Positions 12,701-25,262 of a DNA stretch of 58,693 nucleotides are shown piece after piece (position 1 is the stretch's first letter; every line of letters starts with the position of its first letter). The notes below the pieces were generated by a model. It searched no databases. It was given only the letters and a program-made list of their open reading frames with translations, and was not told the DNA's origin. A program made the translations under genes and the position numbers. Origin of the DNA: Legionellales bacterium UBA7366 (GTDB lineage: Bacteria > Pseudomonadota > Gammaproteobacteria > UBA7366); assembly GCA_002469885.1 (NCBI GenBank), contig DKOI01000029.1, positions 1 to 58,693 of the forward strand, read 5' to 3'.

Positions 12701-15700
12701 CGACACTGGATCCTATAAGCCCCCCACCATTAGCACCACCGCCTGTCACGGCACCCACTGAATAGACCTGATCAATTATGCCGCCTGAGATTTGACCTAA
12801 AAATCCACCAACCGCTCCACTATATGAGCGCACATGACCCGTTGCGTAGGCGACACTAATATCGCCTGTTGCTAGCTCGCCGCTGAGCCCACCTACGTTT
12901 AACGTGCCCGTCACATCACCCGTGGAAAATGCATTTGAAATAGAGCCATAGTTACGTCCAACCAATCCACCGACAAAGTTGTAACCTAAAATGTCCCCCG
13001 TAGCATATGAATCAGTAATGACGCCTGAAGCATTATTCACACCCACAAGACCACCGGCATGAATTCCACCAGACAAAATATCGCCCGTACTGTAAGAGTT
13101 GCTAATGTTAGCATTATTTGAACCAACTAGCCCACCATGTGAACCGCCAAGGCTACCAAGCTGTCCACGCACCATTGCAGAGGAATAAGTGTTTTCAATG
13201 ATTGAATCGACTGCTAATCCAATGAGCCCACCGACATTAGAGTAACCTGCAATATCACCACCGACTAGACCAACATTTTTAACAGTTGCGTTCGAGGTTT
13301 TACCAAAAAGCCCCGCATAATAATTTGCAAACACATCACTATCAATTCCTTTATTCACAACCAAATCATTAATTGTGTGGAACTGACCATCAAACGAACC
13401 TGAAAAATCAGCGCTGGCACTATCGCCTATTGGCTTAAAGCCTAAACCGCCATTCCATATCGAGGTTGCGCCTGCGTCAATACTATTCATCAACTGGTAA
13501 TCTGCTGTTAAGTCAATATTAACTAATTGTAATTGCGTCAACGTTCTAATGTTATTGGTATGTTGTATCTGCAAAACTGGATAAGCGTTAGATCGCAACA
13601 TGTACCATTGACCATCCACACCTGTTCGATTATTTGAAAAGTCCCAACCCGCTGTTGTAAATGTTGATTGTGTTTGAAGTTCAGTTGTTGTTTTACCTGA
13701 AACATTGGTGAGTGTGATAGAGGATTCACCTGTTGTATCAGTGTATGTTCTAGATTGATTGTTGCCTTCGAATAATCTTGCATCAAGATCGGCTGTCGTG
13801 TTTAAACTAAAGACTTCAAAGAGGAGCGCACCAATGGCATCATCGACAAAGGCTGTGTCAGTATCATAATAAGCATGCTCGATTGAAACAATATCATCAA
13901 CATCGGCATTCACAATTTCACCGATAATACCACCTGTGTTATTTGAACCAACGATTAAACCAGTGGTGTAAACATTAGTGATCTCACCTTGATAAAGTGA
14001 ACCGATTAAACCACCCACAGCATTTTCACCAATTACGTTGCCTTGCGTATAGGCATTATCAAGTGTGAAGTTGAAACCCGATGTGTTAGCAAAACCTAAC
14101 AAACCACCCACATTATCGCTCCCCCACGTGCGTGATGTGCTGTAGACTTCATCAATATCCGCATTCGCATTTACTTGACCGACCAGGCCACCAACATTAT
14201 TCACCCCTTCAACACTGCCTTCACTGTAACTGTTGCTAAGGGTTGTATCGCCAGAAATCAAACCGATTAAACCACCGACGTTATTTACACCTATAACATC
14301 ACCTGTGACAAAGAGGTTGTTAGCGCTCAAATCTTCAGTGGCTAGTCCAACCAATCTTCCGACATTTTCCCCGCCGACAACAAGCGCATTGGTGAGGCCT
14401 AGGTTGCTAATGATTGCATTCCTTGTTACACCCAATAAGCCGACATTATCAACACCACCTTGATTGATATAAAGTGAATCAACAGCATAGCCTTGTCCAT
14501 CAAATGAACCTGTAAAGGCTCTTTCGTCATTGCCTAGAGAAGCAAAACCTGCATTAAAGCTGACTCCAGGATTCCAAAAATGCGTTTCAGTCGCATCAAC
14601 GTTATCTATTAAAGAATAATCGCCATCTAGATCAACCGCCATCATTTGTAAGTCTTCGATTGTGTCGATCTCATAGGTATTGACTCCCGTTTGCATCAAC
14701 TTTAACTGCATTTGTAATTGTGGAAACCCGGCCATGATCCAGTCACCATCGTCAATGGCATCATCAGGAATACCGTTAGTTGAAAAATCCCAAGCTGCAA
14801 ACGTGTCAGGATCACGCATTTCTGCAAGAAATCTTAACGCTACATCGGTAATTGCACCGGCATTGGTATCATCACCAATCACGTCATCAGTCGTATTATC
14901 TAAAGAGAATGAATTAGAAACGGTTGCCGTGTTTTGAACTTTACCAATTAATTGACCTACGGCTGTATTACCCGTGGTCGTACCGGTGGTATACGTATTA
15001 CTAATATCATCACTTGGCGCTGAACCGTGCAAACCCACTAAACCACCTACGCTGTTATAACCATCAACATCACCGGTGGCATAAGCATTTTGAATAGTTG
15101 AATTATTCTCGCCGACTAAGCCACCGATACTGTCATCCCCTTCAACGTTACCTGTCGCAAAACTGTTTTCGATGGTTGCATAGTTAGAACCGACAAGACC
15201 ACCGTGTTCTTCACCGCTTAATGCACCATTGTTACCTGTCACGTCACCACTGGCATAACTTTCAGAGACAACCGCATCGTTATCAATAAAACCTGCGAGC
15301 CCGCCAACAGATTTGTTACCGCTTACATTACCTGTTGCATTTGATTTCGTTACAAAGCTGCCATCCAAGGCACCGACTATGCCACCCACTTGATTACCTG
15401 CCGCTACATTGCCGGAAACTGTGCCTGTTGCTGTTGACTCTGAAATCGTTGCGCCGTTAATAACAGGCGTTTCAAAGTAAGTTGCCAACCCCACTAAACC
15501 ACCAATGTTTTCGTCATACCCTTCAACAGACGCTGATGAAGATACATTGGTAATTTTAGTTTGTTGAATAGCCCCCGCAATTGACCCTACGTTTGTTTTA
15601 CCGACGATTGTTCCGCCATCCAAATTAACATTTTTAATTTCAGAATCGGCGCCTTGAACAAAACCAAACAAGCCGACGTAGTCTTCGTTATTGCGATTAA

Positions 15701-17768
15701 TGGTTAAATCACTAATCGTGTTTGAATCCCCTTCTAAAACCCCTTTAAATGATGCTGCATTATCCCCAACGGGATCGAATCCTTTATCGCTATCCCATGT
15801 GCTTGTCGCACTTGCGTCAATGTCTTTCCCTAAAGCGTAATGACCATCGAGTGCTGTACTCATTTGTTGAAGGTCATACACATCATTAATCAACATGTAG
15901 GCATTTTCATTCGTCGCATCAACGTTGCTGCTGTAGTCAGTGGCTGCTGTGAAATCTGTCGTGCCATAAAAAATATCGACATCACCCAAGGTTTTCACTT
16001 GATCGACATCATTAAACATCACCGTTCCACCGGCAACGGCTGCATTGCCGCCGGCTAACGCCGATGAGTCAACACGGTTTGATGAATCTGAATCTGCACG
16101 CAGTGTAATGTTGCTGGCTTGTGTTGCTTCGATTAAAGCGCCTAGTTCAAAAATAATGTCGTTATGCGCATAAACAAATAAATCACTGTCTGCATTACCC
16201 CATGAAATTGCCGCCGCACTTGCGAAAGTCACGTCACCATCTTCTGTGCCTGTGCTGAGAGTTTGAATGATAACATCGGTGCCTAAATCTAAACTGTCTG
16301 AAATGCTTGTTGAGTTGGATCCGTCAACAAAAAAATCTGTTGGATCTAACAACCAAGAACCGCCCTCACCGCTCACAGAGCTTGCTGTCACTGATGCGCC
16401 AGAAATATCGAGCGTTTCTTTACCGGATGTTTCAACAAAACCACCAGCACCAATAAAACCTAATGCACTCGCGCTTGCAGTTCCGTGAAATTGTGTTTCT
16501 TTATCTGCCCAAGCAACAATGGTTCCCGCATCACCTGTAACATGTGAATCTGCTTTTAGTGTCGCGCCTGATTCAACGACTGTTCTTTGTGCTGTTTGAT
16601 ATTCACCTGATCCTTGTCTATCACCGCCTAATAAAATACTACCACCACCGGATTGACCGCTGACATCAATCGACGCACTATCTTCTACATCAATAAACTG
16701 CGCGAAGACGTGCACACTACCACCGGCTTCACCTGCATCATTTCCCACGGCATCTAGAAAGCCTGAGATATTAACTGTGCTTGAATTCCCATAGACGCCA
16801 ATGTGTCCTGCAACCTCCTCGTAACTTGTCGCCCTCATGTTGCCTGACAAGTTAATAATATTATCCAACACATCAACTGCACTGCCTGTTTGAATTAGAA
16901 TCGAACCACCCTCTGCAATCACATCACCACGTTGATCAATGGCAACCATCGTATCGATAAGCGAATCCATTGAGTCATCGTACGCAGTGGGTCTGACGAG
17001 AAGTCCTTTATCAATAACAAAGTTAATTAATCCATCGCCGTAAAAATCCATTGTGTATTGCGTACCAGAACCTAAAACGACGTTCCCTAAGTTCGCGCGA
17101 ATCACACCGTAGTTAGCAACGCCTGGTGCAACCAATGCAGCAAGTCCACTTTCAGAAACTATAGTCCCTTTGTTAACAACCGAAGAAGAAATCGAAGCTT
17201 CGTAATCATCACCTGAAAATGGTTTGAATTGAACATGATTAAGGCCACTCATGAAATCATTTTGATTATGCAAATCCAGAGTTGATGCCATTACCCCTGA
17301 TACGTTCACATAACTACTGGGTCCGAAATAAATGCCATTCGGATTTAAAATCCAGACACGCCCATTGGCTGTTAGCTTTCCATAGATTTCAGAAACCGAT
17401 CCGCCAGTAACACGGTTGACAGCAATTGAATTTGAATTAGGTTGTACGAATTGCGTATGCTCACCTTCTGCAATACTAAAATCTTTCCAGTTGATCACTG
17501 CACGGTTAGAGTGTTGGAGGATTGTAGTTTTTTGTCCTTCAGCAATAATGTCAGCGCTACCTGCTGCAACCACGCCCTCTTGAGGATTGGCTGTAACAAC
17601 AGTCGAAAACAGGATTGTGGTGGTTGCTGCGATGGATAATGAAAATGACTTTACGAGTGAGCGCAGATCAGCGGTATGAAAGAACAAGGCGATTCTAGAT
17701 TGAATACGTAAGCCCTGTGTTCTCTTTGGCGTAATGCTTGACTGCTTCGAAAAATTTTCTAGCTTCAT
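729..17768 (-). CDS. Giant (5679 aa) two-partner-secretion exoprotein: N-terminal TPS domain, FHA-like beta-helix, 11 long GLUG-motif modules, unique C-terminal region
   Basis: Single uninterrupted ORF. The N-terminus has an extended signal-like region, then NPQEGVVAAGSADII..AVINWKDFSIAEGEHTQFVQPNSNSIAVNRVTGGSVSEIYGKLTANGRVWILNPNGIYF, which matches the TPS domain hallmarks INW..F, NRV.GG and NPNGI. The body contains dozens of G-G-L-[VI]-G (GLUG-type) repeats. They are organised in modules that each start with Y.L..[DN]IDAS.T..W...GF.PIG...F.G.[LF]DG.G..I..L.I.R and end with FWD[VI].TSG...S.G...M.....T....W.F.....W.M....P.LQ. Confidence 0.9.
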   Translation of the reverse strand: MKLENFSKQSSITPKRTQGLRIQSRIALFFHTADLRSLVKSFSLSIAATTTILFSTVVTANPQEGVVAAGSADIIAEGQKTTILQHSNRAVINWKDFSIAEGEHTQFVQPNSNSIAVNRVTGGSVSEIYGKLTANGRVWILNPNGIYFGPSSYVNVSGVMASTLDLHNQNDFMSGLNHVQFKPFSGDDYEASISSSVVNKGTIVSESGLAALVAPGVANYGVIRANLGNVVLGSGTQYTMDFYGDGLINFVIDKGLLVRPTAYDDSMDSLIDTMVAIDQRGDVIAEGGSILIQTGSAVDVLDNIINLSGNMRATSYEEVAGHIGVYGNSSTVNISGFLDAVGNDAGEAGGSVHVFAQFIDVEDSASIDVSGQSGGGSILLGGDRQGSGEYQTAQRTVVESGATLKADSHVTGDAGTIVAWADKETQFHGTASASALGFIGAGGFVETSGKETLDISGASVTASSVSGEGGSWLLDPTDFFVDGSNSTSISDSLDLGTDVIIQTLSTGTEDGDVTFASAAAISWGNADSDLFVYAHNDIIFELGALIEATQASNITLRADSDSSNRVDSSALAGGNAAVAGGTVMFNDVDQVKTLGDVDIFYGTTDFTAATDYSSNVDATNENAYMLINDVYDLQQMSTALDGHYALGKDIDASATSTWDSDKGFDPVGDNAASFKGVLEGDSNTISDLTINRNNEDYVGLFGFVQGADSEIKNVNLDGGTIVGKTNVGSIAGAIQQTKITNVSSSASVEGYDENIGGLVGLATYFETPVINGATISESTATGTVSGNVAAGNQVGGIVGALDGSFVTKSNATGNVSGNKSVGGLAGFIDNDAVVSESYASGDVTGNNGALSGEEHGGLVGSNYATIENSFATGNVEGDDSIGGLVGENNSTIQNAYATGDVDGYNSVGGLVGLHGSAPSDDISNTYTTGTTTGNTAVGQLIGKVQNTATVSNSFSLDNTTDDVIGDDTNAGAITDVALRFLAEMRDPDTFAAWDFSTNGIPDDAIDDGDWIMAGFPQLQMQLKLMQTGVNTYEIDTIEDLQMMAVDLDGDYSLIDNVDATETHFWNPGVSFNAGFASLGNDERAFTGSFDGQGYAVDSLYINQGGVDNVGLLGVTRNAIISNLGLTNALVVGGENVGRLVGLATEDLSANNLFVTGDVIGVNNVGGLIGLISGDTTLSNSYSEGSVEGVNNVGGLVGQVNANADIDEVYSTSRTWGSDNVGGLLGFANTSGFNFTLDNAYTQGNVIGENAVGGLIGSLYQGEITNVYTTGLIVGSNNTGGIIGEIVNADVDDIVSIEHAYYDTDTAFVDDAIGALLFEVFSLNTTADLDARLFEGNNQSRTYTDTTGESSITLTNVSGKTTTELQTQSTFTTAGWDFSNNRTGVDGQWYMLRSNAYPVLQIQHTNNIRTLTQLQLVNIDLTADYQLMNSIDAGATSIWNGGLGFKPIGDSASADFSGSFDGQFHTINDLVVNKGIDSDVFANYYAGLFGKTSNATVKNVGLVGGDIAGYSNVGGLIGLAVDSIIENTYSSAMVRGQLGSLGGSHGGLVGSNNANISNSYSTGDILSGGIHAGGLVGVNNASGVITDSYATGDILGYNFVGGLVGRNYGSISNAFSTGDVTGTLNVGGLSGELATGDISVAYATGHVRSYSGAVGGFLGQISGGIIDQVYSVGAVTGGGANGGGLIGSSVGGTVTGSFWDVDTSGKASSAGGAGVIGKSTADMQTQKTYTDVDWDFTNNNVGVEGDWYMAGSARYPRLQMENTLAQTFGIKNVNELQMIDVDLTGNYFLANNIDASETVHWNPESATDYYGFSPIALITDSDPDFDIVFDGTPFTGSLDGRGYTVSNLWFDRNNQSFVGLFAKTSGATISNLGVTDSSYIGEFYVGSLVASSDNRTRVHNVFVDENYVQGLNFVGGVLGEQADSWLSNAYADSTVFGFTNSGGLVGENRRAMILNAHSSGKVYMALIGGGIVGSNSDSSTVMNAYTKSDVFGGLDLFGDINYTSTPSTGGIAGINDDSIIINTYARGKVLGLGDVGGLVGTDNAGTVTNSYWDIATTGQTSSAGGGTGYFTAQMQTEGTYAGWSFLNNSTGVYGDWIMVKEDDYPHLQIENTMAKIFGIQNVTQLQLINVDTTGEYTLRNNIDASETAGWNNGEGFNPINNLLNEGFDGTLDGQNYTISNLSITRPSESEIGLFSRLDNGGVVKNVGLIDPTIIGNTYVGGLSGYFSPTTLRTDGLIQNSYVSGGTIGLAGVSTNVGGLVGSMREGRIIDSWSSADIVGVSDLGGVVGYMLGGSTVFDNVYSTGSVTATNSNGRVGGLVGYLYSLDNRPMMLNRVFSTGDVQNDSLLYGTGGLVGAINPALLTSTQAHIVIQDSYTTANVRGGGGNTGGMIGVVDWNANDATRLSIIDSYSAGNVTSLIHDENSSTAGLIGHIAQNATVDFNNVLWDVESSGFYAPIGFNEGIVIGSPIGITSVERADESTFSNLGWGFNNNNRGIEDTWVYLGDEDGQLTPVLQSALSYNIAEAEQLRYVTLDMQGDYVLTRDIDASDTEYWNSGAGFNPIGNDSTKFTGQLDGRGFAVRDLFINRSSTENVGMFGYIQNATIKNIGLIGGTIVGGNYTGGLVGQADVFSLITSAYNKGNVNGRNFVGGLAGLIDSGSTIENSYATDDVTGEFVVGGLVGSVFGGGIVKTSFATGDVTAASNGAGGLVGSIQVNGRVFNAYATGSVTGDNNVGGFAGSSEGGITNAYSEGFVTGAGSTGGFLGFWSAFDSNTNTYWNIQTSGQAGSAGAGVIGKTPNQMTQEATFTDWNFENSAFGLPGGEWIMAGTPHLQMEHTTDITNVNELALTVLDPFSDYVLMNDIDASQTEAWNYASGLYNGFTPIGLFAGSLDGQGFAIRDLFVRPTNTNLESIGLFSFVHLSDVSNLELINPVVTAPGVANNKVGALSGSVIASTIDNVGVINGTVYGIDRVGGLVGEATMSAISHSFATGTVSGDDVVGGLAGALRYKSSLAYVYSAATVMGDGGQVGGLVGAIESVDASNEMTVQNAYAIGDVFASSSYAGGLIGLVQNADIQEVYATGAVRGDSYVGGLFGELSGGSVSEGFATGRVTASSDAGGLFGLYLSGSSLDKLFWDEQSTKMTGAANGNNNSIAGTTGIELTAEMKDSAVLVGLDFADTWEWILPDSGTEYYDYPHLISENAYGIVSTAGNDGTTGDVVALLSDGLLTGFKGEFLTNDSYMITMREDRVPAGSHLLLFNDSSDSANVVMVTDGQELISSNGPLLLDTYMLAVSPPTAISKIIGIWAAPGDTFFISDIADAVGDYQGKGVRVEYSDDTLRFTNNTNLVTTEELVIDETFALDAHVNGGVYFLNDVSSKEFNTGLIFSGEGTATAEADVDLAYFELQDGTWDQQSIDPTAQTFYANDFRLTGGEFKRFLNSTTPFQIADVYGLQGLNTLSMTNDYTVVNNIDARVTESWNDGEGFMPIGSGGSAYQGIFNGGGHLIDGLTIHRPTENYVGLFSATTGATVEIQHIGLTNVDIIGNSNVGALVGDVNNVNPVAGASISNVFVEGRVQGMSDNVGGVIGVLGTDATIDQAYSLGSVIGGWQRTGGLIGVINSGTNNVTNSFSMSTVTGGIFGIAGGFAGDIKAGAKLSRVYAQGDVIGSNGSTNVGGFAGTYSGAMLDQAYSTGLVSGTGLNFAGFIGQNITGNITHSFWNTETSGYAIGVPPTNPQPGLNELVGLDTEGLMTQSVITSTPGNNWNFSTDWIMAGYPMLRAFNDTLVNNVIELQLMINDLSADYTLTADIDASDTVNWNAGAGFKPIGFTNGSEFIGQLDGNGYNISDLTINRPLEVSVGLFGKVAGNALAITNVNLVDIDIIANGFTGGLVGESSSNGTISDVSVSGTIDSAESWAGGLVGISNGNFNPTISNIYTDVDITGKFNLGGIAGTLSGTNATSGTTLKNVYSTGELTGLGQIGGIVGQNYIGVSIENSYSTSKINSTGSNVGAFIGFNGGNQVQNSFIDSSVNDVMNAIGGGTLGGVDKITTAELTNINTFTGWGSDFYENGGNTWIMAGLPHLQLELNLMRTSDNHFEIDDAVDLQLATLDLDGIYTLTQDIDASVTREWNCISSCTTGTPEYAGFEPIGSYNDRFLGTLDGQQHEIDGLYMKWDSGDFVALFEAVGEGALIKDLGLTSVHIEGGQRLAALAGYMTGASRVQNSYSTGNIYATNAAWAGGLIGIMQDDADSIIQNSYSTANVSGYAWSMGGLIGLFNSGKVFNSYTLGSVSNTAEVNSGFDTGGLTGIIGSQATIINSYAAGPITGNNAGGLMGSSQGFGGTVKNSFWDVDTTGQATSAAGTGLTHAEALTKSTYTNAGWDFTSIWQIPEGIDAPRLIAEGNLDAISGQVYDSSLSASAQNIGVVLGGGSSIARHTVSLSDGSYSFALSAREMENAAGDEVIIFVDNNTGFTANTLFRKEDDVDVTDLNLIQDTIIAGYENGTDVDMALLNDATKNYMSSSIGYTVSGSTLDTSSNAFIANNEYSTGSNETIISTSDRGIAFNDTLELSSGDITLDNNASTGNVYLNADILSTPADTYNLNIDAGPGAIVLDGNVIKPNDISFLANEAVIAGNLQLVNTTAFDFPLHFRGDTVFSSTSTGATALNFQEAISSDYSMLTLNMLIGKQILAGSTVDLDTFYLERGVWAQDLLNPTLQTFSARDFRLGDVDVAVFLRGNFNSFPNIFISDVYGLQGIGSTSLTLNPGANISLSENIDASGTEHWYDGAGFRPIGDSSNPYQGTFDGQDFSITGLTILTTNKNTGLFGYTDSASIHNVELMDADIDSTETYTGALIGQAVNGTTVTQVHSSGVVYGGNNTGGLIGDLNNSAVFESFSIADVYSTGDNVGGLVGVLGGSATATDTYARGDVTALDAVGGLVGTQTGTSLIKTSYSSGNVTATDIVVAGQGALVGEKTGGDIENSYALKDAGLGVNVGLNMVGSDGLILGLKDDTQMRKASTFDGFDFASIWEMLGDPENSVDYPVFQFQDLFSIYGRVLDTLNMNLPAETVNLASNGVIQAGVTTVSSAATDPNNNYALIFSEKDFVGDEAILLFLSSGVANTVFELYDDAGVIPSFNLDIKQGEVRAVSFADSINEPSNTLLSTAAINTLGYTVAGTDVTVDSGLAFHSLADTSFTVDGDITTTAANIQFDTIASVNSGKNLSTKAGDLLFNSDLTLNGNNVLSTSAVNVTFNNTASFDGSNTFNADGGNLHFAGVTNFVGGPNVITTTGGAIDFDSNVNLDNSINNFNTAGGDVTFGGPLANTGTSAVTIAAGTGDLIFTSGNPIGTALDPITLTVNSVNHVELPVGLFEVVKTQVASSVHLSEAGRFNDAMNLLKVGGTLDIANTYPGGEPFIIEADEGILLKLENPMLNVPIVDIQGDVNFLTDATLTSDTSFDVAGNLIFADGTQIVFNALNDNISFMDPATVNGPGDLTLNSDTPVDLFAQIGNVTRLNSIHFPGVLNVVGDSSVSAGTVLFDDAITNSTPVDLTVSAPASGGFIRFGGQVSSPGTPMTLAVPEGGTAHLYAPIYTPLSLHQVYVVNRFNTGRLTDAWAIMRTSADFTQPFGISRPGLSRIGLPYNPLYPYHLNEMDEKLKVFLVPNKIIYIHDELQSNLTYVPGPYNDVISGFIY
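2660..15900 (-). repeat. Eleven diverged tandem coding modules (roughly 300-450 aa each) inside the giant exoprotein gene (approximate bounds)
   Basis: I counted 11 occurrences of the module-start motif: GKDIDASATSTW, IDNVDATETHFW, MNSIDAGATSIW, ANNIDASETVHW, RNNIDASETAGW, TRDIDASDTEYW, MNDIDASQTEAW, VNNIDARVTESW, TADIDASDTVNW, TQDIDASVTREW, SENIDASGTEHW. The repeats are diverged at protein level, and I saw no long identical DNA repeats. Confidence 0.8.
16780..17590 (-). other. Region encoding the TPS (haemagglutination activity) secretion domain of the giant exoprotein (approximate bounds)
   Basis: Corresponds to residues ~60-330 of the 5679-aa ORF, covering the motifs INWKDF, NRVTGG and ILNPNGIYF and the following beta-helix coils. 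Boundaries are estimated by eye. Confidence 0.6.
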
Positions 17769-18871
17769 ACTCTATCCACTTTGACTTAATCTATATGACA
17801 TCTTTATTAGTGAACTCTTTTTAAGCTTAGTCCAAATATTATGATTACACCGGCGAGCTAATTTGATTCGTGAATCTATTCAACCTGTTAAGGCGTAAAA
17901 TATATTTTCGTATGATTTGCCAATGTATTAACAGCAAAAAACGACGATAGGTGCCTGAATATGGTTTTTTATTGGACTTCTGAGTTATTCTTGAACGTTA
18001 TCGGTTTGGGAAAGCCTGTTTCAGAAATAATACGAAATTTGACGGAGTTGTTTTGAGAGGCTAATGCGACAGAAAAAATACACTATTTTCAAGATGAGAG
18101 TTTAATAAGTTATTAATCCGTGACTTAGCGCATTGTTGAACAAAATACAAACTGGCAAGCGAGCTTTGGAATAAGAAAAAATGGATAATTCAGTAGGAAT
18201 TCGTGAATTTTAGGCACATATAATAGCAAAAAAACCCTATATTGGAACTTTTATAGGACAATCGAATCATTTAAAAAGCAAAAAACCGTTTTTGCCAGCT
18301 TAGCCAGCAAATATTTGTGTATTTTATTGACTGGACAACGCCCGAATTAAGCTGTGTAAGGCATTGTTTTTGGGTGCGAAAAAAAGCACCAAAAACAAAC
18401 AGAAAATAACCTTTTTAGATTTTATTTTCGATGAAAATACTCGTTCATATTTTTATCATTCCATATTATAGAAAAATATCGACAGGAAAAACGAGACAAT
18501 TATGAACAGTGAAAAACTCTTTAAATCCCCCAAATCCGAAACCTCATCAACTTATCAAAAGCACCTGTGGAACGCACATAAAACCGCCCCAGGGAGTTTT
18601 ATGGCTATATATGTATCCTCACTTCAAATGCGCACGTCAACAATTTATAGACCAGCCATACAAATAAACTCCCGTCAAAACAAGATTATAACCTATGAAT
18701 TTCAGAGACTTATGAACCTCGAATTTGCACAGTGAAAAAAACTGTTAATACTCAGTGAGTTCGGATAGGAATTGACTTGAATGCAATAAAGTTTAAAACG
18801 TGCCTTAAATCAATTAACTAGCTGTATATTCACTTCGAAACATCATACTCAAGCTTATTATCGATGGAGCA

Positions 18872-18887
18872 TGTTTCACGTGAAACT
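18872..18887. promoter_or_regulatory. parS: parS-like ParB binding site (TGTTTCACGTGAAACT, 15/16 to the palindromic consensus)
   Basis: Direct read of the sequence. The consensus is TGTTNCACGTGAAACA. Confidence 0.75.
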
Positions 18888-18900
18888 TTAAAACGATTCC

Positions 18901-18916
18901 TGTTCCACGTGGAACG
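18901..18916. promoter_or_regulatory. parS: parS-like ParB binding site (TGTTCCACGTGGAACG, degenerate)
   Basis: Direct read. The core GTTCCACGTGGAAC is a perfect 14-bp palindrome, and the site lies 13 bp from the previous one. Confidence 0.65.
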
Positions 18917-19452
18917 CTCAATCACACTCTCACGCCCTGCTCTATTTATGAACAAAAAAGCGCACTAAAAACTGAACCACACACCGAAAAAGAAACAAAT
19001 CGATAAGCGCAAAACGGTAACTTTACTCAAAAAAACGAAGGATGAGACCGACCTGGGACTATACAATATTTACCCCTTCATCATCACGAAAAAACTCTAA
19101 AAAAAAGTCTTTTGCGCTAGATTGAATATCGTTTTTTTAGTAATTATCGTTAGTAAATTTTGACCAAATCATGACCCTGTGAAAATATAACGAAAGCTGA
19201 AAATAATCAATTCTAGACCTTACAAATACATCGGATCTTTTTAAAAATTTCCAAATTAATCATGGGACGAAAGAAGAACAGTCTTTCTTCCGCCTAAATG
19301 CGAGACTGCCTAAATAAAGCCCGCTGAAAAATATCATGGGAAAAACATCTTTTCGATATTGTTTTTTGTTGAAAATGAACAGAAGGACATTAATGGTCAA
19401 AAATCTTTCTGAATCAATTCAAAGCAAGAATATAAGTCGATTAAGTGCTACA

Positions 19453-19478
19453 TTATCCACATATTTTTTGGTGGATAA
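19453..19478. promoter_or_regulatory. Inverted pair of DnaA boxes: TTATCCACA (perfect), tatttttt spacer, GGTGGATAA (complement TTATCCACC, 1 mismatch)
   Basis: Direct read. The consensus DnaA box is TTATCCACA. A further 1-mismatch box, TGTGGCTAA, lies at about 20451-20459. Confidence 0.6.
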
Positions 19479-19723
19479 ACGATGCAACACAGTTTTGAAT
19501 AACGCTAGACGCTATAAAAATTTAGATAATTAAATCTCGCCGATTAACAATCATACAATCGATAGATATCTTTAAAAGAAACCTTTAGAACATAAGCAAA
19601 AAAAGAGCCCATCTGGTGATGTCAATCATTAGAGGCTTGGCTGTTGAAATTCTAGATATATTCGACATTATGCAGCAGCTATTCTTAGTACACCAACCCT
19701 AGCTATACGCATTCAAATAATAA

Positions 19724-19739
19724 TGTTTCACGTGGAACA
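19724..19739. promoter_or_regulatory. parS: parS site TGTTTCACGTGGAACA (complement TGTTCCACGTGAAACA, exact consensus)
   Basis: Direct read. Flanking A/T extend it to the 18-mer ATGTTTCACGTGGAACAT. Confidence 0.85.
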
Positions 19740-19792
19740 TTTCAGACCTGTTTATTTTCGTAACATCGGGAAAAAGGGCGTTTTTAAGCAAA

Positions 19793-19808
19793 TGTTTCAC
19801 GTGGAACA
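19793..19808. promoter_or_regulatory. parS: parS site TGTTTCACGTGGAACA (exact consensus)
   Basis: Direct read. Same 18-mer as at 19723-19740, 53 bp downstream of that site. Confidence 0.85.
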
Positions 19809-20765
19809 TGATAAAAACAGTAAGCTATTGAATATTGACTGCTAAAAACCCGATAGCACTACTAAAATTTGTAATTAATGCCCTAAAAATGTAATTGAAG
19901 TTGGAATAGATGCAAGCGCATATTGGTAGGAGCTGGGAACAGATCTTGAAGACTCATAACAAATCCGTCCAGCTAATTAAGAAGAGCTAAAAAATAAAAG
20001 GGCGCTAACACCGCAATGGAATCATTTATCTTGTATTTATTAAACAGAACAAAGACTAAAAGTTACTGTTATTTATGTAGCAAGCGACCTTAAGAACCAT
20101 CGAAATATCTACAGCCTAGCGTCAAACACCTCTTCTTATTAACTAAAGTGAAGAAAATCTCAAAAAAAACAAGAAATTTTTTCACATCAAACACATGACG
20201 TTTAGTTTGGCAAAGATACCTGATCAGGTCTAAAGGCACCTGGAAATTACTCTTAGTAATGCGAATAATCTTCGAGTCATCTAACTGAAATATTCGATAT
20301 TAATTTCCCTGTGAATAGGCAGCATTTTAAGAAGAAAAAAACGATGTAAGCAGTCCCTTAAAAAGAAAATTTAATATCGTTTTTTAAATGAATATCGATA
20401 GGGCGAATCTTAGTGAAGTACGCTTAAAAACTCAAAACTCCGGAAACTTTTGTGGCTAATTTTAGCGCCCTAATATATAACGATAATCATTAAATTATCG
20501 GTAGTGTTTCTTGATGAATTAAAAAATAAGAATAATTCATCATGTGATGACCTTAATTTAGCTGTGCGCAAATTTGAACATTCGATTCTCGCTGGGATTA
20601 CCGAAATTTTAAATTAAATAAAACACGAAAGCTCGAGGCAAAAGCGAGAAAAGGCTTCTGAGTCTGAAGCCTCGTGCTCAACCAGCTGGAATTTTCGTGA
20701 TATTCGAATTTTTTTAAAGGGTATTCTGAGTACCCAGACCCTTCTAAGTCCCTTATCAACATAGA

Positions 20766-20781
20766 TGTTTCACGTGGAACA
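20766..20781. promoter_or_regulatory. parS: parS site TGTTTCACGTGGAACA (exact consensus)
   Basis: Direct read. Same 18-mer ATGTTTCACGTGGAACAT. Confidence 0.85.
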
Positions 20782-20836
20782 TTTAGCCTTTGCCTAACAC
20801 CTCCAACTTGCCTGTTCTTGGAGATTTTAAGTGACA

Positions 20837-20852
20837 TGTTTCACGTGGAACA
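20837..20852. promoter_or_regulatory. parS: parS site TGTTTCACGTGGAACA (exact consensus), 16 nt downstream of the recF stop codon
   Basis: Direct read. Same 18-mer, 55 bp from the previous site. Confidence 0.85.
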
Positions 20853-20868
20853 TGTAAAAACTATTAAG

Positions 20869-21942
20869 CTATTGAATATTCCCAGCCCTTATCTTAAGGA
20901 GCTTGCTAGGGAGTGTATTTAGATGGGGTAAAATTGTTTTTGCGTCTGTACAAGTGATAAAAAGCTGGCTTTGCTGGTCGGAAAGCAACTGTAGCACTTT
21001 TCCTTGGTTTAAGTAATCTAGCTCTGCCACTAAGTCATCTAGAAGGTAAATACAACTTTTTTGCTTAACGGATTTAAACAACAGTCCCTGTGCAATTTTC
21101 ATTGCACAGATGAATAGCTTTTGCTGACCACGTGAAAGAACTTCCTTAGCAGGGTGTTTACCCACTTTAATCTTAAGATCCGCATGATGTGGCCCGAACT
21201 GGGTATAGCCAAGTGATGCATCCCTGATAAAACCATCTGTAAGAGCGTCTTCGTATGACTTATCTGCAGGCCAACCTGAATAGTAACGTATGTCGAGGTT
21301 AGGGAGATCAATTAACTCCGGTAAGATCTTATATAAGGTTTCACAGAACAGCTCTATATAGCTTTTGCGTGCGGCATCAATCCTTAAACCGTTCTCTATG
21401 ACTTCCGCATTCCAAGACAGTATCTCGTCACGCTTGCACTGTGTCCTCAATGCCATGTTGCGTTGCTTCACACATCTTGAATAATTCTTCCATACATTCA
21501 CAAAATTATGTTCCACGTGAAACACTCCCCAGTCAACGAAGCTCCGTCGCAAACCTGGCCCACCTTCAAGCAAACTAAAGCTATGTGGTTCCAACAACTG
21601 TAATGGCAACACCTCAGCAAGCTTTGATGCTGAATAAACATCCTCACCGGCAATACGCATACGACTGCGCCCATTAGCAGAGCGCTCAACACCTACCGGT
21701 TTGTTTTGTTGCTCAACGTCAAGCACATTAGCAAACAGAGAGAACGCGTCAGCATTGTGTGAAACAATTCTATTGATGATATGTGTTCTAAAGGACTTCC
21801 CTAAACCCAAGAAGTGGATTGCTTCTAGAAAGCTTGTCTTCCCACTACCGTTTTCTCCCTGAATGATGTTGACGTTACTTAACTCTGTAGAGACTGATTC
21901 TAAGTTTCTAAAGGTATTTATATTAAGCTGTGTAATAGACAT
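20869..21942 (-). CDS. recF: DNA replication and repair protein RecF
   Basis: 357 aa. N-terminus MSITQLNINTFRNLESV, Walker A GENGSGKTSFLEAI, and a C-terminal LLDD.. Walker B/signature region. Located directly downstream of dnaN. Confidence 0.95.
   Translation of the reverse strand: MSITQLNINTFRNLESVSTELSNVNIIQGENGSGKTSFLEAIHFLGLGKSFRTHIINRIVSHNADAFSLFANVLDVEQQNKPVGVERSANGRSRMRIAGEDVYSASKLAEVLPLQLLEPHSFSLLEGGPGLRRSFVDWGVFHVEHNFVNVWKNYSRCVKQRNMALRTQCKRDEILSWNAEVIENGLRIDAARKSYIELFCETLYKILPELIDLPNLDIRYYSGWPADKSYEDALTDGFIRDASLGYTQFGPHHADLKIKVGKHPAKEVLSRGQQKLFICAMKIAQGLLFKSVKQKSCIYLLDDLVAELDYLNQGKVLQLLSDQQSQLFITCTDAKTILPHLNTLPSKLLKIRAGNIQ
21509..21524. promoter_or_regulatory. parS: parS site TGTTCCACGTGAAACA (exact consensus, opposite orientation) embedded in the recF coding sequence
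   Basis: Direct read. On the coding (minus) strand it reads GTG TTT CAC GTG GAA CAT, encoding V-F-H-V-E-H of the RecF segment DWGVFHVEHNF. Confidence 0.8.
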
Positions 21943-22170: not shown

Positions 22171-22295
22171 GCTGCGCATTTCCTGCAGGCGCATCGCCTT
22201 CGCGCTGCTTGTGCAGGCTACATTAGAAGAAAAACACCAAGAACGATGAGGCATGTCGTAGCCCGCATAAGAGAACAACGTGAACGCCTGCGGGG
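22171..22295. repeat. MITE/REP-like element, family A, copy 1 (about 125 bp with ~40-bp imperfect terminal inverted repeats)
   Basis: The left arm CCTGCAGGCGCATCGCCTTCGCGCTGCTTGTGCAGGCTAC pairs with the right arm GTAGCCCGCATAAGAGAACAACGTGAACGCCTGCGGGG. Confidence 0.75.
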
Positions 22296-22320
22296 TTCAA
22301 ATCAACACATGAGTTGATTC

Positions 22321-22446
22321 GCTTCGCGCATTTCCTGCAGGCGCATCGCCTTCGCGCTGCTTGTGCAGGCTACATTAGAAGAAAAACACTCTGAACGATA
22401 GACTTGTCGTAGCCCGCACAAGAGAACGAAGTGAACGCCTGCGGGG
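22321..22446. repeat. MITE/REP-like element, family A, copy 2 (tandem to copy 1, near-identical)
   Basis: GCTTCGCGCATTTCCTGCAGGCGCATCGCCTTCGCGCTGCTTGTGCAGGCTACATTAGAAGAAAAACAC...GTCGTAGCCCGCACAAGAGAACGAAGTGAACGCCTGCGGGG. The left ~75 bp are identical to copy 1. Confidence 0.8.
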
Positions 22447-22470
22447 CTTCAATAAAAAAATGCTCTGGAA

Positions 22471-22564: not shown

Positions 22565-23680
22565 TTAAAGACGCATTGGCATGATGACGTATAACGCCTC
22601 TAGCGTATCATCCGTAATGTCTGCTTCTACTAATACACTGCTGTTTGCATCGGTGAATGAGACGCGCACAAGCGGTGATGACACGGCACCTAAAACGTCT
22701 TGCAGGTAAGTGACGTTAAAGCCCACTTCCAAAGCGGAGCGTGGGTAATCGATTGTTAACTCTTCTTCGGCAGTTTCTTTTTCTGAGTTATGCGCGAAGA
22801 TTTTTAATGTGTTGTTGTCGAAGACAAGTCGAACACCGCGGTATTTATCATGCGATAGAATTGCAACGCGGGTGAGTGCTTGTTTTAAGTCGTTGCGATC
22901 GACGAGTACGCAGTGAGCAGATTTTCTTGGAATCACACGTTGGAAATCTGGGAAGCGGCCTTCGATTAATTTTGATGTGAAGGTGAATGCATCAGAGGTG
23001 ACACGAATGTGGTGTTCGCCGATGTGCACTGTCACTTCTTTGTCGGTGTGTGCAAGCAAGCGCATAAGCTCCAGTATGCCTTTACGCGGCACGATCACTT
23101 GAAGGTCTTTATCTACAGACACTTGTGGTGCAGGGCATTTACAAAGTGCTAGGCGGTGGCCATCGGTTGCGACCATTTGAAGTGCGCCGTTATTCACATG
23201 AAAAAGAATGCCGTTCAAGTAGTAGCGCACGTCTTGCTGTGCCATAGCAAAATGTGTTTTTTCAATTAATTGTTTGAGTGCAGTTTCAGGCAGAGTAAAC
23301 GTATTTTCTGCAGCTTCATTTTCAACGGCAGGAAAATCCTCTGCCGATAAGGTTGCGAGCACGAAGCGGCTACGGCCTGATTTTACGAGAAGTCGATCTT
23401 TATCGAGCGTTAGTTTTACTGCACCGTTTTCAGGTAATGATTTACAAATATCAACAAGCTTTCGCGCAGGCACGGTGATGCGCCCGGTTTGTGTCACGTT
23501 TTCAACGGAGACACGGCCAATGAGCTCGACCTCTAAATCGGTCGCCGTGAGCGCCAGCTCTTGCTCACCTAAAGACAATAAAACATTTGATAGAATGGGC
23601 AAGGTTTGTTTTTTTTCAACCGCACCGCTAATTAACTGCAGTGGATTTAATAAGGTTTCACGTTGTATTGTAAATTCCAT
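22565..23680 (-). CDS. dnaN: DNA polymerase III beta sliding clamp
   Basis: 371 aa. MEFTIQRETLLNPLQLISGAVEKKQTLPILSNVLL is a typical DnaN N-terminus, and the C-terminus ends ...YVIMPMRL. Located downstream of dnaA. Confidence 0.97.
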   Translation of the reverse strand: MEFTIQRETLLNPLQLISGAVEKKQTLPILSNVLLSLGEQELALTATDLEVELIGRVSVENVTQTGRITVPARKLVDICKSLPENGAVKLTLDKDRLLVKSGRSRFVLATLSAEDFPAVENEAAENTFTLPETALKQLIEKTHFAMAQQDVRYYLNGILFHVNNGALQMVATDGHRLALCKCPAPQVSVDKDLQVIVPRKGILELMRLLAHTDKEVTVHIGEHHIRVTSDAFTFTSKLIEGRFPDFQRVIPRKSAHCVLVDRNDLKQALTRVAILSHDKYRGVRLVFDNNTLKIFAHNSEKETAEEELTIDYPRSALEVGFNVTYLQDVLGAVSSPLVRVSFTDANSSVLVEADITDDTLEALYVIMPMRL

Positions 23681-23697
23681 AATGATAATCCTTTTGG

Positions 23698-25077
23698 TTA
23701 GGTTGACAACGTTCTTAATAAATTTTTGTAATCTTCTGCAATGTCTGTTGTTGTTTCAATTAAGTCTTTAATTTTACGGCAGGCATGCAAAACGGTTGTA
23801 TGATCGCGGCCGCCAAATGAATCTGCAATTTCTGGCAAGCTGTGACTTGTTAATTCTTTTGCGAGTGCCATCGCCATTTGGCGAGGGCGGGCGATAGAGC
23901 GGTTACGTCTTTTTGAGAGCAAGTCTGCGACTTTAATTTTGTAATATTCCGCTACGGTTTTTTGGATATTGTCGATCGTCACGAGGCGATCTTGCAACGT
24001 AAGAAGATCACGCAGCGCTTCTTTAACGAAGTCTAGTGTAATATCTTTTCCGGTGAAGTGTGCATTCGCAATGACACGCTTGAGTGCACCTTCGAGTTCA
24101 CGCACGTTTGAGCGAATACGTTTAGCGATAAAGAAAGCGACTTCATAAGGCAGTTCAATTCTAGACTGTTCTGCTTTATTCATTAAGATAGCCACACGGG
24201 TTTCGAGTTCTGGCGGCTCAATCGCAACGGTAAGCCCCCAACCGAATCGAGATTTAAGGCGTTCTTCTAGCCCATTAATCTCTTTGGGATAACGATCACA
24301 ACTCAAGATAATTTGTTGACGACCTTCTAGAAGAGCGTTGAAGGTATGGAAAAATTCTTCTTGAGAGCGCTCTTTACCTGCAAAGAATTGAATATCATCA
24401 ATTAACAGGGCATCTACGGAGCGGTAATGGCGTTTAAATTGATCCATGCGATTAGATTGAAGCGCTTTGACCATTTCTGCAACAAAGCGCTCGGAGTGCA
24501 AATAGAGTACGCGTGCATTGGGGTTACTTGCTTCAATCGTATTACCGACTGCGTGCATTAAATGGGTTTTACCCAATCCAACGCCACCGTACAGGAATAC
24601 GGGGTTATAAGCATCTGCTGGATTTTCTGCCACCTGTTGTGCGGCTGCGCGGGCTAATTGATTCGACTTACCTTCCACGAAGGTATCGAATGTGAGGTTT
24701 GGATTAATATTACTACGATGCGGAGTAACTGTCGTATCACGCGGTGTGGCGTAACCATAATTTGATGTTGCGGGTGCGCGCGCCGGTTGCGCTTTAGCAA
24801 TCGGTGCTTGGGCTTCTTTTGCACTACCAACGCTTAAATGTACGCTAGGAACTGCATCATCTTGAAACAAATCAGCGAGTATATCGTTTATACGCGTTAG
24901 AAATTTATCTTTTACCCAATCCAAGACGAAGCGATTCGGTGCTAAAAGATATAACTTGTTATCTTTATACTCAACTTGTAAAGGGCGTATCCATGTGTTG
25001 ATTTGTTGTGCGGGAAATTCTGCTTGGAGATGGCTTAAGCATTCTTCCCATACGGTGACAGTTGCGGTTGCAGACAC
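23698..25077 (-). CDS. dnaA: Chromosomal replication initiator DnaA (start revised to GTG at 25077)
   Basis: AAA+ Walker [14 protein letters not shown] and C-terminal DNA-binding region [15 protein letters not shown]. The track ORF starts at a TTG 51 codons upstream and reads through hydrophobic junk. The GTG at 25077-25075 is preceded by AGGAG with 8-nt spacing and gives [34 protein letters not shown], a typical DnaA N-terminus (459 aa). Confidence 0.95.
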
Positions 25078-25156
25078 AGATAAAACTCCTAAGCAAAAGA
25101 AAAAATAACACGGGTGGGTTAGGGTACCAAAAAACCATGGGCGAAGGGAAGTAGGC

Positions 25157-25177
25157 TTTTCCACAATTTTATCCACA
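25157..25177. promoter_or_regulatory. Two tandem DnaA boxes (TTTTCCACA and TTATCCACA) in the dnaA/polA divergent promoter region
   Basis: Direct read: TTTTCCACA at 25157-25165 and a perfect TTATCCACA at 25169-25177, 80-100 bp upstream of the revised dnaA start. Consistent with dnaA autoregulation. Confidence 0.7.
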
Positions 25178-25262
25178 GCGAATGTCATAGAAGAGCCTAT
25201 TATTTTGCAAAGAAAATGCATACAATTCAAAGCAATTTTAATGGCTTAAGGTAACAAATTCT

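What the first reader, a model, noticed from the sequence alone, without database searches (positions are those of the whole stretch)
18872..21524. Seven ParB-binding parS sites in 2.65 kb: three tight pairs in noncoding DNA plus one inside recF
There are five exact copies of TGTTTCACGTGGAACA or its complement TGTTCCACGTGAAACA. They lie at 19724-19739, 19793-19808, 20766-20781 and 20837-20852, and inverted at 21509-21524 within recF, where the site encodes V-F-H-V-E-H. Two near copies lie at 18872-18887 (TGTTTCACGTGAAACT) and 18901-18916 (TGTTCCACGTGGAACG). This is the canonical chromosomal centromere site TGTTNCACGTGAAACA bound by Spo0J/ParB. Origin-proximal parS sites are expected. In characterised chromosomes, however, they are usually few and scattered over many kb, often inside genes. 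Here six of them form three doublets (13, 53 and 55 bp between 16-mers) spaced 0.85 and 1.04 kb apart inside ORF-free DNA. That looks like a dedicated, possibly amplified, centromere locus adjacent to dnaA-dnaN-recF. The four intergenic exact copies all share the extended 18-mer ATGTTTCACGTGGAACAT and the same orientation. This argues for duplication or selection rather than chance.
Basis: partly seen in the sequence, partly recalled or inferred. Interest (0 to 1): 0.85.

Follow-up and report, generated by a model that had tools for sequence, protein, structure and literature searches.

The report
Expanded parS centromere cluster beside recF
Seven copies of the standard bacterial chromosome "centromere" site (parS) sit within 2.65 kb next to dnaA-dnaN-recF in an uncultured marine gammaproteobacterium; this is a genuine but fairly ordinary origin-region centromere, enlarged by duplicating a site that relatives carry inside or at the end of recF.

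Summary
There are five exact and two one-mismatch matches to TGTTNCACGTGNAACA at the stated coordinates, against 0.33 expected by chance. None occurs elsewhere in the window, apart from one 2-mismatch chance-level hit.

Six sites lie as three pairs in a 3.1 kb AT-rich stretch with no coding potential, between recF and a giant secreted-adhesin gene. The seventh encodes VFHVEH inside recF. Six independent assemblies give the same locus.

All 13 relatives examined (12 distinct RecF proteins, 40-87% identical to the window's) carry one to three perfect parS sites in or next to recF. In P. aeruginosa, parS1 and parS2 are reported within recF. So recF-linked parS is ancestral and known.

This lineage expanded it. 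Pair 2 is a diverged copy of recF 3' end + pair 3. The closest relative keeps the unit stop-16-parS-55-parS-31-15mer with identical spacing but unalignable spacers.

Dense parS arrays and doublets are common elsewhere.

No ParB gene could be found in the reachable DNA.

Verdict: real ParB-loading centromere cluster, a new member of a known kind, modest interest.

The parts
18872..18887 (.). parS-like site, 1 mismatch at position 16 (TGTTTCACGTGAAACT); pair 1, left member
18901..18916 (.). parS-like site, 1 mismatch at position 16 (TGTTCCACGTGGAACG); pair 1, right member, 29 bp start-to-start from its partner
19678..19692 (-). degenerate copy (12/15) of the conserved 15-mer, 31 nt from parS 19724
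19724..19739 (.). exact parS; pair 2
19793..19808 (.). exact parS; pair 2, 69 bp start-to-start from 19724
19825..19901 (-). non-coding remnant of a recF 3' end, including CTATTGAATATT (= NIQ-stop). It is 61-62% identical to the live recF 3' end and to that of L016, and marks pair 2 as a segmental duplicate.
20720..20734 (-). conserved 15-mer GGTACTCAGAATACC (recF-sense), 31 nt beyond the second parS of pair 3. It is 14/15 identical in relative L016 at the same distance. Its function is unknown.
20766..20781 (.). exact parS; pair 3
20837..20852 (.). exact parS; pair 3, 71 bp from 20766 and 16 nt after the recF stop codon
21509..21524 (.). exact parS inside recF, encoding VFHVEH (aa 140-145)
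17769..20868 (.). 3.1 kb AT-rich (33-35% GC against about 44% in flanking genes) stretch with no coding potential. It holds the six intergenic sites. Its left 1.1 kb is also the upstream region of the giant tpsA-like gene.
20869..21942 (-). recF (357 aa)
22565..23680 (-). dnaN
23698..25188 (-). dnaA (496 aa as called in public assemblies; the longest ORF runs to 25230)

Best explanation
This is the chromosomal centromere of a ParABS segregation system: an array of seven ParB-loading parS sites beside dnaA-dnaN-recF. By analogy with studied systems (inferred), CTP-bound ParB dimers load at each 16-bp palindrome and close into sliding clamps. They spread over the gene-free 3 kb and its neighbours to form one partition complex. 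ParA then moves that complex, and it probably also loads SMC. The array arose by expansion of an ancestral recF-embedded site. RecF has two peptides, DWGVFHVEH in the middle and KMFHVEHG at the C-terminus, whose codons can spell parS. Relatives use one or both. In this lineage the C-terminal coding copy was lost (the peptide is now LLKIRAG). A doublet sits 16 nt after the stop, and a segment of at least 350 bp (recF 3' end + doublet + flank) was duplicated about 1 kb further out. Shown: the sites, their confinement to this stretch, conservation in relatives, and the duplication. Inferred: ParB binding, spreading, and the role in segregation.
For: Seven sites are found against 0.33 expected, and none elsewhere in the window or in the 9 kb to its right. 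The neighbours are dnaA, dnaN and recF. All 13 relatives examined (12 distinct RecF proteins, 40-87% identical to the window's) have one to three perfect parS sites in or just after recF, at the same two codon positions. In L016 (recF 82% nt identical) the mid-recF site and the post-stop doublet are kept, while the DNA between and beyond them is unalignable. This is the signature of purifying selection on the sites. Pair 2 with its recF 3' remnant aligns to pair 3 and to L016 (E 1.6e-18 and 3e-12). The literature reports parS1/parS2 inside recF in P. aeruginosa (PMC5521831). It also reports tight clusters and a 42-bp doublet in Caulobacter (PMC5815017 and PMC10387095). There is no similarity to any plasmid or phage record.
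Against: No parA or parB gene lies in the 58.7 kb window or the reachable right flank. The 28 kb to the left on the source scaffold could not be fetched. oriC was not located: the window has no DnaA-box cluster and no GC-skew turn, so origin proximity rests only on linkage to dnaA. Pair 1 has a mismatch in each site and a different spacing (29 bp), so it may bind weakly. There are no binding data for this uncultured organism.
Confidence: 0.8

Rival explanations
1. The intergenic sites act mainly as ParB operators. ParB bound and spread from the doublets would silence neighbouring promoters, such as that of the giant TpsA-type adhesin gene or read-through from recF, rather than serving segregation.
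For: In P. aeruginosa the intergenic parS3/parS4 repress adjacent promoters, whereas the intragenic recF sites do not at native ParB levels (PMC5521831). The 3.1 kb stretch is the upstream region of the 5679-aa TPS/GLUG protein gene.
Against: Pair 1, the nearest pair, is still 1.1 kb from the adhesin start codon. Pairs 2 and 3 have no gene to regulate other than recF's 3' end. Seven sites are more than an operator needs. This role would add to segregation rather than replace it.
Confidence: 0.1
2. The 3.1 kb non-coding stretch is, or contains, the replication origin, and the parS sites are embedded in oriC.
For: A palindromic DnaA-box pair, TTATCCAC-N10-GTGGATAA, lies at 19453-19478. The region is AT-rich. 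The dnaA upstream spacer is only about 74 bp, so oriC must lie somewhere other than directly upstream of dnaA. Unrelated locus L054 has 15 parS sites in the ORF-free DNA upstream of dnaA.
Against: The stretch holds only two good DnaA boxes, plus two boxes with 1 mismatch several hundred bp or more away. No repeated AT-rich 13-mers were seen. Cumulative GC skew shows no minimum here.
Confidence: 0.07
3. The 16-mers are a generic dispersed repeat, the target of another regulator (CACGTG core), or a leftover partition site of an integrated plasmid or phage, unrelated to chromosome segregation.
For: The sequence is a short palindrome, and the ParB gene has not been seen.
Against: There are no further copies in 58.7 kb plus 9 kb. 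The match to the canonical parS is exact. Orthologous sites are conserved in the relatives' recF. No mobile-element genes are nearby. There is no match to 72,556 plasmid or 50,697 phage records.
Confidence: 0.03

Closest known systems
Pseudomonas aeruginosa parS1-4 cluster (parS1 and parS2 inside recF; parS3 and parS4 intergenic, all close to oriC)
   Same: Both are gammaproteobacterial and use the same 16-bp palindrome. Both have sites embedded in recF of the dnaA-dnaN-recF operon plus nearby intergenic sites. In P. aeruginosa the cluster is necessary and sufficient for segregation (PMC5521831).
   Different: P. aeruginosa has four sites (spread over about 15 kb, from my own recall), two of them intragenic, with no gene-free island. 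Here seven sites lie in 2.65 kb, six of them in a 3.1 kb non-coding stretch arranged as doublets, and gyrB no longer follows recF.
Caulobacter crescentus parS1-7 cluster
   Same: It has five strong sites within 5 kb, including two only 42 bp apart. Clustering is proposed to raise local ParB density because each site supports about 2 kb of spreading. New sites are tolerated only near the existing cluster (PMC5815017, PMC10387095).
   Different: The Caulobacter sites lie near parAB and mostly within essential or high-fitness-cost genes. Here they sit in non-coding DNA next to recF.
Dense parS arrays in uncultured bacteria found here (L054, L126, L138, L074)
   Same: These are exact canonical parS sites at very high density. 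L054 has 15 in 1 kb of ORF-free DNA upstream of dnaA-dnaN. L126 has 14 in 0.85 kb. L074 has 7 across mnmE-gidA-gidB-parB.
   Different: The taxa are unrelated. Their sites sit 33-140 bp apart in one tight block, not in doublets 1 kb apart. None of these loci shows a link to recF.
Plasmid centromeres made of tandem iterons (F sopC, P1 parS)
   Same: They also use multiple closely spaced ParB-family binding sites in non-coding DNA.
   Different: The site sequences differ, the repeats are strictly tandem, and they lie directly beside their own parAB operon. None of that is seen here (own knowledge for the plasmid systems; for this locus).

Membership tests
Chromosomal ParABS centromere (Spo0J/ParB-type parS) | 16-bp palindrome matching TGTTNCACGTGAAACA | tested here: met
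   Five exact and two 1-mismatch matches.
Chromosomal ParABS centromere (Spo0J/ParB-type parS) | Sites far more frequent than chance and confined to one region, not dispersed | tested here: met
   Eight hits against 0.33 expected. All good hits lie within 2.65 kb, and none lies in the 9 kb beyond the window. The whole genome was not available.
Chromosomal ParABS centromere (Spo0J/ParB-type parS) | Location in the origin-proximal domain | tested here: inconclusive
   The sites lie directly beside dnaA-dnaN-recF. However, oriC could not be placed from DnaA boxes or skew.
Chromosomal ParABS centromere (Spo0J/ParB-type parS) | Sites conserved at orthologous positions in relatives while flanks diverge | tested here: met
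   All 13 relatives examined keep parS in or after recF. L016 keeps the doublet while its spacers are at random-level identity.
Chromosomal ParABS centromere (Spo0J/ParB-type parS) | Cognate ParB (and ParA) encoded in the same genome | not testable with these tools
   None is present in the window or right flank.
Chromosomal ParABS centromere (Spo0J/ParB-type parS) | ParB binds, loads with CTP and spreads from the sites | not testable with these tools
   This requires ChIP-seq, DAP-seq or in vitro loading assays.
Bacterial oriC | Cluster of several DnaA boxes next to an AT-rich unwinding element | tested here: not met
   There is only one inverted pair of boxes, at 19453-19478, and no box cluster anywhere in the window. 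No tandem AT-rich repeats were found.
Plasmid/phage iteron-type partition site | Tandem iterons adjacent to a parAB operon on a mobile element | tested here: not met
   There is no tandem array in the stretch, no par genes or mobile-element genes nearby, and no plasmid or phage similarity.

The most novel reading that the evidence does not exclude
The recF-proximal unit (stop-16-parS-55-parS-31-GGTACTCAGAATACC) may be a composite centromere module. Its internal distances are held exactly while the spacer sequence turns over faster than synonymous sites. The module would position two ParB loading sites and a third, unknown DNA-binding factor. Duplication of this module would then be how the lineage moved its centromere out of the recF coding sequence into a dedicated gene-free island.
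Probability: 0.15. Interest if true: 0.5.

Novelty: new member of a known kind. Interest (0 to 1): 0.3.

Why it matters
The locus is a clear natural example of how a bacterial centromere region can grow, a question raised explicitly for Caulobacter (PMC5815017). A parS that relatives carry in or at the end of a housekeeping gene has been copied, together with the gene's 3' end, into adjacent non-coding DNA. The copies remain perfect while everything around them decays. The locus also adds a Legionellales-like marine lineage to the organisms with recF-linked parS. It does not change the current picture of ParABS function.

Tried and rejected
- **Pseudogene remnants in the 3.1 kb stretch:** I scanned six-frame translations, with stops masked, against Pfam at E<=1. 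Nothing was found.
- **Structured RNA:** I ran Rfam at gathering thresholds and at E<=1. The only hit was a chance-level match at 19.6 bits.
- **oriC in the stretch:** I checked DnaA-box, tandem-repeat and skew evidence. Support is insufficient.
- **Promoter and terminator scan of 17.6-22.7 kb:** there were fewer consensus matches than in shuffles.
- **Mobile-element origin:** there is no plasmid or phage similarity.
- **ParB gene:** I walked 9 kb to the right of the window and found only metabolic genes. The left 28 kb of the scaffold cannot be fetched, because the only handle is a 5679-aa protein above the look-up limit.
- **P0003 (the 69%-identity RecF relative):** its contig has no DNA on hand.
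- **Universal preferred doublet spacing:** the distance histogram from 252 adjacent site pairs in metagenome loci shows no peak near 70 bp.
- **The 15-mer as a hairpin, terminator, or SlmA/LexA/IHF-type site:** no convincing fit. This rests on my own comparison with consensus sequences recalled from memory.
- **The 15-mer elsewhere:** it is absent from the rest of the window and from 1.04 Mb of fetched loci.
Full report
**Observation**

- Five are exact: 19724, 19793, 20766, 20837 and 21509.
- Two have one mismatch at position 16: 18872 and 18901.
- One further 2-mismatch hit lies at 13689, inside a giant gene.

Dinucleotide-preserving shuffles give 0.33 matches on average and never more than 2. 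The spacings are as stated: 13, 53 and 55 nt between members of a pair, and pairs 852 and 1042 bp apart. The locus is 99.8-100% identical in six independent assemblies from different samples, so it is not an assembly artefact.

**Surroundings**

- recF (20869-21942), dnaN (22565-23680) and dnaA (23698-25188) lie on the minus strand. polA diverges from dnaA.
- To the left, a 5679-aa ORF (729-17768, minus strand) has a TPS secretion domain and GLUG repeats. It is a two-partner-secretion exoprotein.
- Between it and recF lie 3.1 kb (17769-20868) at 33-35% GC, against about 44% in the flanking genes.
  - This stretch has 59-78 stop codons per frame.
  - Masked six-frame translations give no Pfam hit at E<=1.
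  - There is no Rfam family.
  - There is no plasmid or phage similarity.
- No ParA or ParB is encoded in the window or in the next 9 kb to the right.

**Organism**

RecF is 40-49% identical to MAGs labelled Coxiellaceae or Gammaproteobacteria. A small neighbouring gene hits the Pfam family named CBU_0585_lpg0581. The source samples look marine, judging from their names. I read this as an uncultured Legionellales-like gammaproteobacterium.

**Comparison with relatives**

All 13 relatives examined (12 distinct RecF proteins) have perfect parS sites in or beside recF, and nowhere else within up to 10 kb on each side, or to the contig end.
- L001-L007, L142 and L143 (RecF 39-45% identical) have one site, encoding (K/R)MFHVEHG (KMFHVKHG in L007) at the RecF C-terminus.
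- L141 (46%) has one site at the mid-gene position.
- L017-L019 (49%; three contigs that carry the same RecF protein) have three sites: mid-gene (DWGLFHVEH), C-terminal (QLFHVEQG) and one intergenic, 177 nt after the stop.
- L016 (87% aa, 82% nt) has the mid-gene site plus a doublet starting 16 nt after the stop.

Relatives that lack the mid-gene site have a different peptide there (FY...), so the peptide and the site go together. Where gene order can be read (L003, L004, L142, L143), recF is followed by an ORF of about 810 aa, confirmed as gyrB in L142 and L143 and inferred from size and position in L003 and L004. In the window that synteny is broken exactly where the 3.1 kb stretch sits. The literature describes P. 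aeruginosa parS1 and parS2 as lying within recF, and parS3 and parS4 as intergenic (PMC5521831). A recF-linked parS is therefore an old and already described gammaproteobacterial feature.

**How the cluster grew**

The window's RecF C-terminus reads KLLKIRAGNIQ. This aligns with KMFHVEHGxx of relatives but no longer spells parS. Instead a doublet follows the stop codon.

Window 19645-19836 aligns to 20687-20880 (68%, E 1.6e-18). L016's recF 3' end plus doublet aligns to window 19897-19675 (63%, E 3e-12). The 77 nt at 19825-19901 are 61-62% identical to both live recF 3' ends, including CTATTGAATATT = NIQ-stop.

Pair 2 is therefore a segmental duplicate, at least 350 bp long, of recF 3' end + pair 3. 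On the recF-sense strand the shared 18-mer of the intergenic copies reads ATG TTC CAC GTG AAA CAT = MFHVKH. This is the C-terminal peptide seen in L007, which fits descent from the coding copy. That last point is an inference.

Pair 1 has a different spacing (29 bp) and a mismatch in each site. Its origin is unresolved.

**A conserved architecture**

Three copies of the unit exist: window pair 3, window pair 2 and L016. They share the layout stop-16-parS-55/53/55-parS-31/31/31-15mer. The 15-mer is GGTACTCAGAATACC at window 20720-20734. It is 14/15 identical in L016 and 12/15 in the pair 2 copy.

The spacers themselves are at random-level identity: 17/55 and 9/31 ungapped between the window and L016, and not significant against shuffles. 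Yet recF four-fold degenerate sites are 61% identical.

So spacing appears to be constrained while sequence is not, and the spacer sequence turns over faster than synonymous sites. I cannot explain that. The 15-mer occurs nowhere else in the window or in 1.04 Mb of fetched loci, and it does not form a conserved hairpin. A third DNA-binding factor is possible but untested.

**How unusual is it?**

Within those loci:
- Six have at least 7 sites in a 2.65 kb span.
- L054 has 15 exact sites in 1 kb of ORF-free DNA just upstream of dnaA-dnaN.
- L126 has 14 sites in 0.85 kb.
- L074 has 7 sites across mnmE-gidA-gidB-parB.
- Doublet distances show no preferred value.

Caulobacter has five strong sites within 5 kb, two of them 42 bp apart. 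There, clustering is proposed to raise local ParB density, and new sites are tolerated only near the old cluster (PMC5815017, PMC10387095). Density, doublets and gene-free placement are therefore all recurrent themes, not singular to this locus.

**Mechanism**

- **Shown:** canonical sites, confined to this region, conserved under selection, and amplified by duplication.
- **Inferred from established ParABS biology:** ParB-CTP clamps load at the seven sites and slide over the untranscribed 3 kb and its neighbours. They bridge into one partition complex that ParA segregates and that recruits SMC.
- **Speculation:** a stretch free of genes and transcription would offer few roadblocks to sliding.

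ParB-mediated silencing of the adjacent adhesin gene or of recF is a possible side effect (PMC5521831). An origin function for the stretch has weak support: one palindromic DnaA-box pair at 19453-19478, no box cluster and no skew turn.

**Verdict**

It is a new member of a known kind. The evolutionary route is neat: a coding-embedded site was copied into a non-coding island. The fixed-spacing module with an extra 15-mer is a small open question. Interest is about 0.3.

Noticed in passing
window 22174-22452 (recF-dnaN spacer): This is a GC-rich 152-bp unit repeated 1.8 times in tandem (92% identity). Each unit is a long imperfect inverted repeat (fold z about -2.1 on either strand). Assembly L011 differs here by about 100 bp, which suggests copy-number variation. 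There is no Rfam match. A 76-aa ORF is called across the region on the opposite strand in public assemblies.
   Followed up: partly
window 19453-19478: An isolated palindromic pair of DnaA boxes, TTATCCAC-N10-GTGGATAA, lies in the middle of the non-coding stretch. Two more boxes (25157 and 25169) sit at the very start of dnaA.
   Followed up: partly
window 19121-19153, 20369-20401, 20478-20503: A 33-nt element is repeated at 82% identity, 1248 bp apart, with an inverted partner. The shared core is AATWATCGNTAG. The heptamer AATATCG occurs 6 times in the stretch against 0.6 expected. Its function is unknown, and it may belong to the same old duplication as pairs 2 and 3.
   Followed up: partly
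window 20735-20836 versus L016 1666-1767: Spacer DNA inside the doublet unit is at random-level identity between the two species (about 30%), although recF four-fold sites are 61% identical. The spacer lengths are nevertheless identical. Sequence turnover faster than synonymous sites, at fixed length, is unexplained.
   Followed up: partly
window 729-17768 (minus strand): This is a 5679-aa ORF with an N-terminal TPS secretion domain and GLUG repeats, that is, a giant two-partner-secretion exoprotein. No TpsB-like transporter gene lies upstream of it, where the 3.1 kb non-coding stretch sits instead.
   Followed up: partly
window 20869 onward, compared with L003, L004, L142, L143: Relatives have polA-(gene)-dnaA-dnaN-recF followed by an ORF of about 810 aa, confirmed as gyrB in L142 and L143. 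In the window gyrB is missing after recF, so a rearrangement breakpoint coincides with the parS island.
   Followed up: partly
L054 1044-2027; L126 1306-2172; L138 23-1717: Unrelated metagenome contigs carry 13-15 canonical parS sites within 1-2 kb. L054 has all 15 exact, in ORF-free DNA directly upstream of dnaA-dnaN in a 35% GC organism. Such parS islands may be an under-described recurrent feature.
   Followed up: partly
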